NCBI RefSeq assembly: GCF_003334355.1
Contig: NZ_QOWP01000060.1
DNA from: Escherichia coli
GTDB taxonomy: Bacteria > Pseudomonadota > Gammaproteobacteria > Enterobacterales > Enterobacteriaceae
Direction: 5' to 3' (one strand)
Length of the DNA: 9,090 nt
Position numbers and translations under genes: made by a program. Each line of letters begins with the position of its first letter. Within the stretch, counting starts at the first letter, position 1. Positions 1,703-1,739 of this stretch are shown here, piece by piece. Below the pieces are notes generated by a model. That model saw only the letters and a list, made by a program, of their open reading frames with translations, was not told the origin of the DNA and ran no database searches.

Positions 1703-1739
1703 GATTGTAGAGGCATGTTCTGATGACGCCTCTACAATC
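1703..1739. repeat. Perfect 12-bp inverted repeat (GATTGTAGAGGC / GCCTCTACAATC) with 13-nt spacer; hairpin or operator-like palindrome
   Basis: Left arm 1703-1714 is the exact reverse complement of right arm 1728-1739. It lies about 65 nt after the stop of the upstream pseudogene fragment and about 160 nt before the yhiJ start. TTT follows at 1740-1742 but there is no long T tract. Confidence 0.5.

What the first reader, a model, noticed from the sequence alone, without database searches (positions are those of the whole stretch)
1703..1739. Perfect 12-bp palindrome between the decayed and the intact paralog
GATTGTAGAGGC-N13-GCCTCTACAATC is an exact inverted repeat. A 12/12 match is unlikely by chance in an intergenic region of a few hundred bp. 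It could be a transcription terminator for the upstream gene, though the trailing U tract is weak, or a dimeric regulator binding site or RNA hairpin controlling yhiJ.
Basis: seen in the sequence. Interest (0 to 1): 0.35.

Follow-up and report, generated by a model that had tools for sequence, protein, structure and literature searches.

The report
Gene-end hairpin after E. coli yhiL
The perfect 12-bp palindrome is real and not a chance match, but it is most likely an ordinary RNA stem-loop at the end of the yhiL gene, found only in E. coli, and not a regulator of the neighbouring yhiJ gene.

Summary
GATTGTAGAGGC (1703-1714) and GCCTCTACAATC (1728-1739) are 12/12 complementary around a 13-nt loop. 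No shuffle of the 261-nt spacer reached this (0/2000), and 1 of 200 shuffles of the window did.

The window is the AT-rich E. coli yhiKL(pseudogene)-yhiJ-yhiY-yhiI-rbbA-yhhJ locus. The hairpin lies 64 nt after the yhiL stop and about 47 nt upstream of the -35 box of the predicted yhiJ promoter (TTGAGG-19-TATAAT, 1786-1816).

It is single copy. It is present in all 4171 of 5426 complete E. coli genomes that carry the spacer, and absent from plasmids, phages, viral contigs and Rfam.

In sampled E. coli alleles the only stem change is C1714T, which keeps a G.U pair on the sense strand. This invariance is not significantly above the spacer background (p about 0.11).

The only outgroup, E. albertii, keeps the flanks and the yhiJ promoter region but not the palindrome. 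One lineage deleted the hairpin together with the yhiL 3' part and still has an intact yhiJ.

Best reading: a lineage-specific 3' stem-loop of the yhiL transcript, acting as a weak terminator and/or exonuclease barrier. There are no 3'-end data for this silenced locus. The finding is ordinary and of low interest.

The parts
33..1639 (+). yhiKL (yhiL) pseudogene, the decayed paralog whose 3' end the hairpin follows
   Evidence: RefSeq K-12 annotation 'YhiJ/YhiL family protein, frameshifted', mapped onto the window. A 1-nt deletion near 1226 relative to the intact PV0838 allele. Split ORFs 264..1271 and 1247..1639.
1703..1714 (+). Left arm of the palindrome, GATTGTAGAGGC
   Evidence: Invariant in 14 E. 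coli alleles except C1714T, which gives a U.G pair on the + strand RNA.
1715..1727 (+). 13-nt loop, ATGTTCTGATGAC
   Evidence: Polymorphic at 1717, 1719 and 1725. The three inner pairs predicted by RNAfold are broken in the A1719 and A1717 alleles, so they are not conserved.
1728..1739 (+). Right arm of the palindrome, GCCTCTACAATC
   Evidence: Invariant in all sampled E. coli alleles. Only 5/12 positions are identical to E. albertii in the alignment.
1740..1754 (+). Tail TTTAGGGACTTTCTC: three U, then a G-rich interruption (weak U tract)
   Evidence: T-tract score nT = 2.5 against 5.1-5.5 for the trpA t and thr attenuator terminators. It becomes TCTAGGG in the L016 allele (nT 1.5).
1786..1816 (+). 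Predicted sigma-70 promoter of yhiJ, TTGAGG-19-TATAAT, downstream of the hairpin
   Evidence: Pattern match. Genomic SELEX reported an RpoD promoter 'TTGACG-19-TATAAT' and H-NS binding in the yhiJ-yhiL spacer (PMC3946193). 1789-1817 is invariant in E. coli alleles, and windows across this promoter are 75-83% identical to E. albertii.
1901..3523 (+). yhiJ, the intact paralog (DUF4049)

Best explanation
The palindrome encodes a stem-loop in the 3' untranslated region of the yhiL transcript: a 12-bp stem, a 13-nt loop and about -18 kcal/mol on the sense strand.

When transcription from yhiL reads through the stop codon, the hairpin forms 64 nt downstream. It is followed by only three U. I therefore expect it to act as a weak, leaky intrinsic terminator and, mainly, as a barrier to 3'-5' exonucleases (PNPase, RNase II). 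That barrier would define and stabilise the yhiL mRNA 3' end after diffuse Rho-dependent termination further downstream. This would also limit read-through into the separately promoted yhiJ.

The hairpin is specific to the E. coli lineage. It is not part of the yhiJ control region.

Shown here:
- the structure exists and is not a chance match;
- its position and strand logic;
- it is single copy;
- it is present in every E. coli genome that holds the spacer;
- it is absent from E. albertii.

Inferred: that it is transcribed, and that it terminates transcription or protects the RNA 3' end.
For: - Perfect 12-bp stem, z about -5, with no shuffle folding as well.
- Placement: 64 nt after the yhiL stop and about 47 nt before the -35 box of the predicted yhiJ promoter, which is where a gene-end hairpin belongs.
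- Only the + strand has any U run after the stem (nT 2.5 against 0.6 on the - strand).
- The single stem polymorphism, C1714T, keeps U.G on the + strand RNA but would give A.C on the - strand. The loop varies more than the stem, 3/13 against 1/24 positions.
- At pair 1706-1736 the states are T-A (E. coli), T.G and C-G (two E. albertii alleles), a wobble-mediated path.
- The second-longest perfect inverted repeat in the window (8823-8855, 10-bp arms, also a 13-nt loop) likewise sits just after a stop codon, that of yhhJ, on the sense strand.
- Dar & Sorek 2018 (PMC6061677) showed that nearly all E. coli mRNAs, including Rho-dependent ones, end at stable stem-loops. Those of Rho-dependent transcripts lack a U tract and protect against PNPase and RNase II.
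- The locus is AT-rich (35% GC) and H-NS bound. From general knowledge, this is the kind of DNA where Rho termination dominates.
- In lineage L022 the hairpin was deleted together with the yhiL 3' part, while the yhiJ promoter and ORF persist.
Against: - No transcript 3' end has been reported here. yhiJ, yhiL and yhiK are absent from the held supplements of two 3'-end studies, probably because the locus is silenced.
- The hairpin fails the consensus terminator scan: the loop exceeds 8 nt and there are fewer than 5 T in 8. Its d-type score is -23.
- The 100 nt downstream are not C-over-G (C 13, G 19), unlike typical rut regions.
- Stem invariance within E. coli is not significantly above the spacer background (Fisher p = 0.11-0.13).
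- E. albertii has no significant structure at the homologous place (z = -1.0 to -1.2). A hairpin there is therefore not a conserved requirement of yhiL orthologs.
- In this window's strain yhiL is a pseudogene, so Rho polarity may stop most transcripts before they reach the hairpin.
Confidence: 0.5

Rival explanations
1. The palindrome is a neutral by-product. An ancestral imperfect palindrome was made perfect in the E. coli lineage by an intrastrand template-switch (quasi-palindrome correction) mutation. It has since hitch-hiked with the locus and has no selected function.
For: - Against E. albertii the arms are the least conserved part (11/24 identical), while the loop (9/13) and the rest of the spacer (147/224) are better kept. 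A one-step arm conversion predicts this pattern.
- Both E. albertii arms are still recognisable homologs, but they pair over only about 4 outer bp.
- Within E. coli the stem is no more conserved than several other 25-29-nt invariant runs of the spacer.
- The hairpin lies in the fast-evolving, yhiL-proximal half of the spacer.
- The locus is dispensable: 1255 of 5426 genomes lack it, and the spacer has been lost by deletion or by paralog fusion in separate lineages.
Against: - The direction of change cannot be polarised with one outgroup. Decay of an ancestral perfect palindrome in E. albertii fits equally well.
- In that case, 24 unchanged sites over a spacer divergence of 34% would be unlikely under neutrality. 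My estimate is 0.83^24, about 0.01, derived.
- The only stem change seen keeps pairing.
- Any transcript crossing the site will form the hairpin, so a physical effect on RNA 3' ends is hard to avoid.
Confidence: 0.3
2. The palindrome is a double-stranded DNA operator for a dimeric or tetrameric transcription factor that regulates yhiJ (or yhiL) from an upstream position.
For: - The two half-sites are perfectly symmetric.
- The site lies upstream of a promoter in an H-NS-bound spacer.
- Reviews list yhiJ and yhiL among LexA-dependent, damage-induced genes whose direct control is poorly defined.
Against: - The arm centres are 25 bp apart, about 2.4 helical turns. From general knowledge this is atypical for dimeric helix-turn-helix operators.
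- By my arithmetic from the predicted promoter, the site spans roughly -84 to -120 from the predicted start. No half-site recurs in the window with up to 2 mismatches.
- No LexA-like CTG-N10-CAG motif occurs in the spacer.
- No regulator gene is present in the locus.
- The palindrome is not conserved in E. albertii, although the promoter-proximal 145 nt are 70-90% identical.
- Lineage L022 lacks the site but keeps the promoter and yhiJ.
Confidence: 0.1
3. The palindrome is a DNA-level relic or site: an end of a mobile element, a recombinase or transposase hairpin target, or a member of a repeated extragenic palindrome family.
For: - It lies in a horizontally acquired, AT-rich island that suffers IS1 insertions.
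- One deletion endpoint falls at the edge of the right arm.
Against: - There is exactly one locus per genome in 4171 E. coli genomes. The 'second place' is the reverse-strand self-hit.
- There are no matches in phages or viral contigs. The only 'plasmid' hits are 4.8-4.9-Mb mislabelled chromosomes.
- There is no Rfam family.
- There is no paralogous copy next to yhiJ's own 3' end or upstream of yhiL.
- The 13-bp spacer is too long for known tyrosine-recombinase core sites (general knowledge).
Confidence: 0.05

Closest known systems
Protective 3'-terminal stem-loops of Rho-dependent E. coli transcripts (Dar & Sorek 2018, PMC6061677)
   Same: A stable, unique (non-REP) stem-loop shortly after a stop codon on the sense strand, without a proper U tract, in a poorly expressed, AT-rich and H-NS-bound gene.
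   Different: - No mapped 3' end exists for this site.
- The 13-nt loop is longer than the 3-8 nt that the consensus terminator scan allows.
- The downstream 100 nt are G-over-C rather than C-over-G.
Intrinsic (Rho-independent) terminators
   Same: A stem-loop of terminator-like energy (-18 kcal/mol) after a gene, with three U directly after the stem.
   Different: - The U tract is interrupted after 3 nt (UUUAGGGAC), and is UCU in one allele.
- The loop is 13 nt, and there is no A tract upstream.
- It is not found by the consensus scan and has a negative d-type score.
REP/BIME and other repeated extragenic palindromes
   Same: An extragenic palindrome at a gene end that could stabilise upstream mRNA.
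   Different: It is single copy with an unrelated sequence. A REP-like GCCGGATAAGGCG lies elsewhere in the window (about 8887), not here.
Quasi-palindrome template-switch mutation products
   Same: Perfectly complementary arms whose orthologous arms in the sister species are imperfect, with clustered differences in the arms and a better-kept loop.
   Different: The direction of change is unknown, and no experimental or phylogenetic polarisation is possible with one outgroup.

Membership tests
Intrinsic terminator | Stable G+C-containing stem-loop downstream of a stop codon on the sense strand | tested here: met
   12-bp stem, 50% GC, -18 kcal/mol, 64 nt after the yhiL stop.
Intrinsic terminator | Short loop (about 3-8 nt) | tested here: not met
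   The loop is 13 nt. The three extra inner pairs predicted for the window allele are broken in the A1719 and A1717 alleles.
Intrinsic terminator | U tract of about 7-8 nt directly after the stem | tested here: not met
   The tail is UUUAGGGACUUUCUC, nT 2.5 against 5.1-5.5 for trpA t and the thr attenuator. It is UCUAGGG in the L016 allele. The consensus scan found 0 terminators in 1200-2300.
Intrinsic terminator | Transcript 3' end at the U tract in vivo or in vitro | not testable with these tools
   No entry for yhiJ, yhiL or yhiK in the held supplements of PMC7815308 and PMC12207403. The supplements of PMC6061677 and PMC9023263 are not held.
Protective 3' stem-loop of Rho-dependent transcripts | Energetically stable stem-loop not followed by a U-rich sequence, at the gene end | tested here: met
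   The class is defined in PMC6061677.
Protective 3' stem-loop of Rho-dependent transcripts | C-over-G (rut-like) sequence downstream | tested here: not met
   1740-1839 has C 13 and G 19.
Protective 3' stem-loop of Rho-dependent transcripts | Bicyclomycin-sensitive read-through and exonuclease-dependent trimming back to the hairpin | not testable with these tools
   Requires RNA-seq or term-seq with and without bicyclomycin, and in pnp and rnb mutants.
REP/BIME or other repeated or mobile palindromes | Many copies per genome, or copies on mobile DNA | tested here: not met
   One locus per genome in 4171 genomes, and none in phages, viral contigs or true plasmids.
Inverted-repeat operator of a transcription factor | Symmetric half-sites at a spacing that suits a dimer | tested here: inconclusive
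   Symmetry is perfect, but the centre-to-centre distance is 25 bp. This is atypical, though tetramers are not excluded.
Inverted-repeat operator of a transcription factor | Conservation together with the regulated promoter in orthologous loci | tested here: not met
   The E. albertii promoter region is 70-90% identical, but the arms are 11/24 identical and not complementary. L022 keeps the promoter without the site.
Described RNA families (Rfam 15) | Covariance-model match at or above the gathering score | tested here: not met
   There is no match at the gathering threshold in the window. Only chance-level eukaryotic snoRNA and miRNA hits appear, at E above 1.

The most novel reading that the evidence does not exclude
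The perfect palindrome is under selection as a DNA or RNA switch specific to E. coli. One version is an operator or structure-specific protein site that couples expression of the two DUF4049 paralogs to DNA damage or to relief of H-NS silencing. Alternatively, it is a natural, datable example of a quasi-palindrome made perfect by template switching and then fixed species-wide.
Probability: 0.1. Interest if true: 0.4.

Novelty: new member of a known kind. Interest (0 to 1): 0.13.

Why it matters
It matters little beyond annotation. If confirmed, the hairpin marks the 3' boundary of the yhiL transcription unit and shows that yhiJ has its own promoter downstream. This is useful for operon maps of a silenced, Escherichia-restricted island of unknown function. 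The comparison with E. albertii also illustrates how gene-end hairpins can appear or vanish between sister species while the neighbouring promoter stays conserved.

Tried and rejected
- **Repeated or mobile motif: rejected.** BLAST of 48-61 nt around the hairpin found one locus per genome in E. coli. A local BLAST showed that the apparent second place is the reverse-strand self-hit. Phages, viral contigs and plasmids gave nothing genuine.
- **Rfam: no family**.
- **Orthologs in other species.** Two scans of 100,044 species-representative genomes, one with YhiJ and one with a YhiJ/YhiL alignment, found only a 311-bp Bradyrhizobium-labelled contig. The only outgroup is therefore E. albertii, found through the protein database. 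A metagenome scan for non-E. coli spacer alleles added one more E. albertii-like allele and three E. coli alleles.
- **Conserved alternative structure in E. albertii: rejected.** The most stable local fold overlaps the homologous place but is no better than shuffles.
- **Paralogous copy of the hairpin or spacer.** None was found downstream of yhiJ or upstream of yhiL.
- **Purifying selection on the stem within E. coli: not significant**.
- **LexA box in the spacer: none**.
- **Small ORF 1636..1716 on the - strand.** Its start codon is lost in C1714T alleles, so it is spurious.
- **Published 3'-end maps.** There are no entries for this locus in the supplements that are held, and two other supplements are not held. 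The arm sequences occur only in unrelated eukaryotic papers.

Full report
**1. The observation**

The window holds GATTGTAGAGGC at 1703-1714 and its exact reverse complement GCCTCTACAATC at 1728-1739, separated by the 13 nt ATGTTCTGATGAC. It is the longest perfect inverted repeat with a 3-40-nt loop in the window.

A 12-bp perfect repeat was reached in 0 of 2000 dinucleotide-preserving shuffles of the 261-nt spacer, and in 1 of 200 shuffles of the whole window. Simple arithmetic gives about 0.02 expected per 9-kb window but about 10 per E. coli genome. The match is therefore locally improbable, but not by itself proof of function.

As RNA the sense strand folds at -23.1 kcal/mol (z = -4.7) and the antisense strand at -21.2 kcal/mol (z = -5.0). 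The bare hairpin gives -18 kcal/mol. As single-stranded DNA it gives -11.3 kcal/mol.

**2. Context**

The window is the E. coli locus yhiKL(pseudogene)-yhiJ-yhiY-yhiI-rbbA-yhhJ, all on the + strand here.
- The upstream paralog is annotated as frameshifted in K-12. It carries a 1-nt deletion near 1226 relative to an intact allele.
- The two DUF4049 genes form an AT-rich island, about 35% GC against about 57% for yhiI-rbbA.
- The hairpin starts 64 nt after the yhiL stop (1637-1639) and ends 162 nt before the yhiJ ATG (1901).
- A sigma-70-like promoter, TTGAGG-19-TATAAT, lies at 1786-1816. This matches, bar one base, the 'TTGACG-19-TATAAT' RpoD promoter that genomic SELEX assigned to the H-NS-bound yhiJ-yhiL spacer (PMC3946193).

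The hairpin therefore lies between the end of yhiL and the yhiJ promoter, not inside a yhiJ leader.

**3. Copy number and distribution**

The spacer with the hairpin is present once per genome in 4171 of 5426 complete E. coli genomes, always on the chromosome. The 'two places' reported for perfect alleles are the reverse-strand self-alignment of the palindrome, which just passes the E-value limit (E = 9.5 at 28 Gb).

The same 4171 genomes hold the yhiJ promoter region. There is no genuine match in plasmids (the three hits are 4.8-4.9-Mb chromosomes filed as plasmids), in phages or in viral contigs. There is no Rfam family, and the sequence is not mentioned in any bacterial paper. It is not a repeated operator, a REP-type element or a mobile-element end.

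**4. Variation within E. coli**

I aligned 14 alleles, including a deep one in which YhiJ is only 86% identical (A4).
- The 24 stem positions show one polymorphism, C1714T, at the loop-closing pair. It gives U.G on the sense RNA and would give A.C on the antisense RNA.
- The loop has 3 variable positions of 13, and the rest of the spacer 33 of 224.
- The direction fits a sense-strand RNA helix, but the deficit is not significant (Fisher p = 0.11-0.13). Other invariant runs of 25-29 nt exist, notably over the promoter.
- Three further metagenomic E. coli alleles also carry the perfect palindrome.
- The three inner loop pairs predicted for the window allele are broken in the A1719 and A1717 alleles.

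**5. Beyond E. coli**

The YhiJ/YhiL family is almost confined to Escherichia. Two scans of one genome per species found no orthologous locus. The protein database supplied E. albertii (YhiJ 58% identical).

In E. albertii the spacer is 356 nt. The anchors CTTAATCGAT and TTCATATTATG are kept, and the promoter-proximal 145 nt are 70-90% identical. The arms, however, are only 11/24 identical and no longer complementary, while the loop is 9/13 and the rest of the spacer 147/224 identical.

Only the outer four pairs survive. At pair 1706-1736 the states are T-A in E. coli and T.G or C-G in two E. albertii alleles.

The most stable local fold of the E. albertii spacer overlaps the homologous place but is no better than shuffles (z = -1.0 to -1.2).

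The perfect palindrome is thus a feature of the E. coli lineage. With a single outgroup the direction cannot be settled: a gain, for example by a template-switch 'correction' of a quasi-palindrome, or decay in E. albertii.

If the palindrome predates the split, keeping 24 sites unchanged while the spacer diverged by 34% would have a probability of about 0.01 under neutral point mutation (my estimate). If it is younger, no such argument holds.

**6. Natural deletions**

- In lineage L022 (YhiJ 87% identical), a deletion of about 1 kb runs from yhiL codon ~213 to the right arm. Homology resumes at TTAGG (window 1741), and the promoter region and an intact yhiJ ORF persist.
- In L019 the two paralogs are fused into one 555-aa gene, and the spacer is gone.

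The hairpin travels with the yhiL 3' end. In at least one lineage the yhiJ promoter region and an intact yhiJ ORF persist without it.

**7. Mechanism**

The tail after the stem is UUUAGGGACUUUCUC, and UCUAGGG in one allele. The consensus scan finds no terminator in 1200-2300. A d'Aubenton-Carafa-type score is -23, against +37 and +53 for the trpA t and thr attenuator terminators. The antisense strand has no U run at all (nT 0.6).

An efficient intrinsic terminator is therefore unlikely, and a weak one is possible.

The closest described class is the stable, U-poor stem-loop at which Rho-dependent E. coli transcripts end after exonucleolytic trimming by PNPase and RNase II (Dar & Sorek 2018, PMC6061677). 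Position, energy and the silenced, AT-rich context fit this class. The downstream C-over-G bias does not (C 13, G 19).

The second-longest perfect inverted repeat of the window (8823-8855, 10-bp arms and again a 13-nt loop) also sits just after a stop codon, that of yhhJ. This supports the reading that these are gene-end hairpins.

No 3'-end data exist for the locus in the supplements that could be searched.

**8. Rivals**

- A neutral palindrome produced by template switching explains the diverged arms with a kept loop, and the lack of significant constraint. I give it 0.3.
- An operator is disfavoured, and I give it 0.1. The arm centres are 25 bp apart. There is no regulator gene in the locus and no second half-site in the window. 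There is no LexA-like box, although reviews list yhiJ and yhiL among damage-induced genes. The site is not conserved alongside the conserved promoter.
- A mobile or recombination relic is essentially excluded by copy number. I give it 0.05.

**9. Verdict**

The options that involve control of yhiJ are not supported.

This is an unannotated but ordinary member of a known kind, and low interest is appropriate.

Noticed in passing
window 8823-8855: This is the second-longest perfect inverted repeat in the window: CCGATGCGTA / TACGCATCGG, 10-bp arms and again a 13-nt loop. It starts 11 nt after the yhhJ stop (8812), has no immediate U tract, and is followed at about 8887 by a REP-like GCCGGATAAGGCG. 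It is probably the yhhJ gene-end hairpin.
   Followed up: partly
window 1901-3523 (YhiJ), and the YhiL alleles in L002 and L006: The DUF4049 proteins carry metallophosphoesterase-like motifs in the alignment consensus (GDTDG, GDxTGDR, GNHE, HHG). They give weak hits to Pfam Metallophos (E 0.013), WipA_Phos (E 0.031) and NCBIfam T4SS_Wip (E 0.0023). YhiJ and YhiL may therefore be PPP-type phosphatases. There is no PADLOC hit and no PDB sequence hit.
   Followed up: partly
whole yhiL-yhiJ island, window 1-3600: The family is almost confined to Escherichia. There is no locus in one genome per species for 100,044 species, apart from a 311-bp contig labelled Bradyrhizobium (L021), probably contamination. 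1255 of 5426 complete E. coli genomes lack it. Alleles within E. coli differ by up to 13-14% in protein sequence, which is unusually deep for this species.
   Followed up: partly
L022 2290-2345; L019 3001-4668: The spacer has been lost in two independent ways. One is a deletion of about 1 kb from yhiL codon ~213 to the right arm of the hairpin, with its endpoint at the edge of the palindrome. The other is a yhiL-yhiJ hybrid gene of 555 aa, apparently from recombination between the paralogs.
   Followed up: partly
L005 2197-2894 (strain PSS-15); L023 1923-2426 and 3561-4064 (Shigella flexneri K-315): There are IS1 insertions in this locus. In PSS-15, IS1 sits about 50 nt downstream of the hairpin, at about window 1789, inside the predicted -35 box of the yhiJ promoter. 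In S. flexneri, two IS1 copies interrupt the region.
   Followed up: no
L014 3645-3740 (E. albertii): The E. albertii spacer carries about 95 extra nucleotides directly after the yhiL stop that have no counterpart in E. coli. A small hairpin there (CCCGG...TCGGG) is no better than shuffles.
   Followed up: partly
window 1830-1839 and 1886-1895: AACATGAGGT and AATATGAGGT form a direct repeat. The second copy holds the yhiJ Shine-Dalgarno sequence. The first is followed by a two-codon mini-ORF (ATG TCA TAA, 1842-1850) inside the conserved yhiJ leader.
   Followed up: no
window 1636-1716, minus strand: A 26-aa ORF has its ATG at the boundary of the hairpin's left arm and loop (complement of 1714-1716). 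The start codon is destroyed in the common C1714T alleles, so it is very likely spurious.
   Followed up: yes
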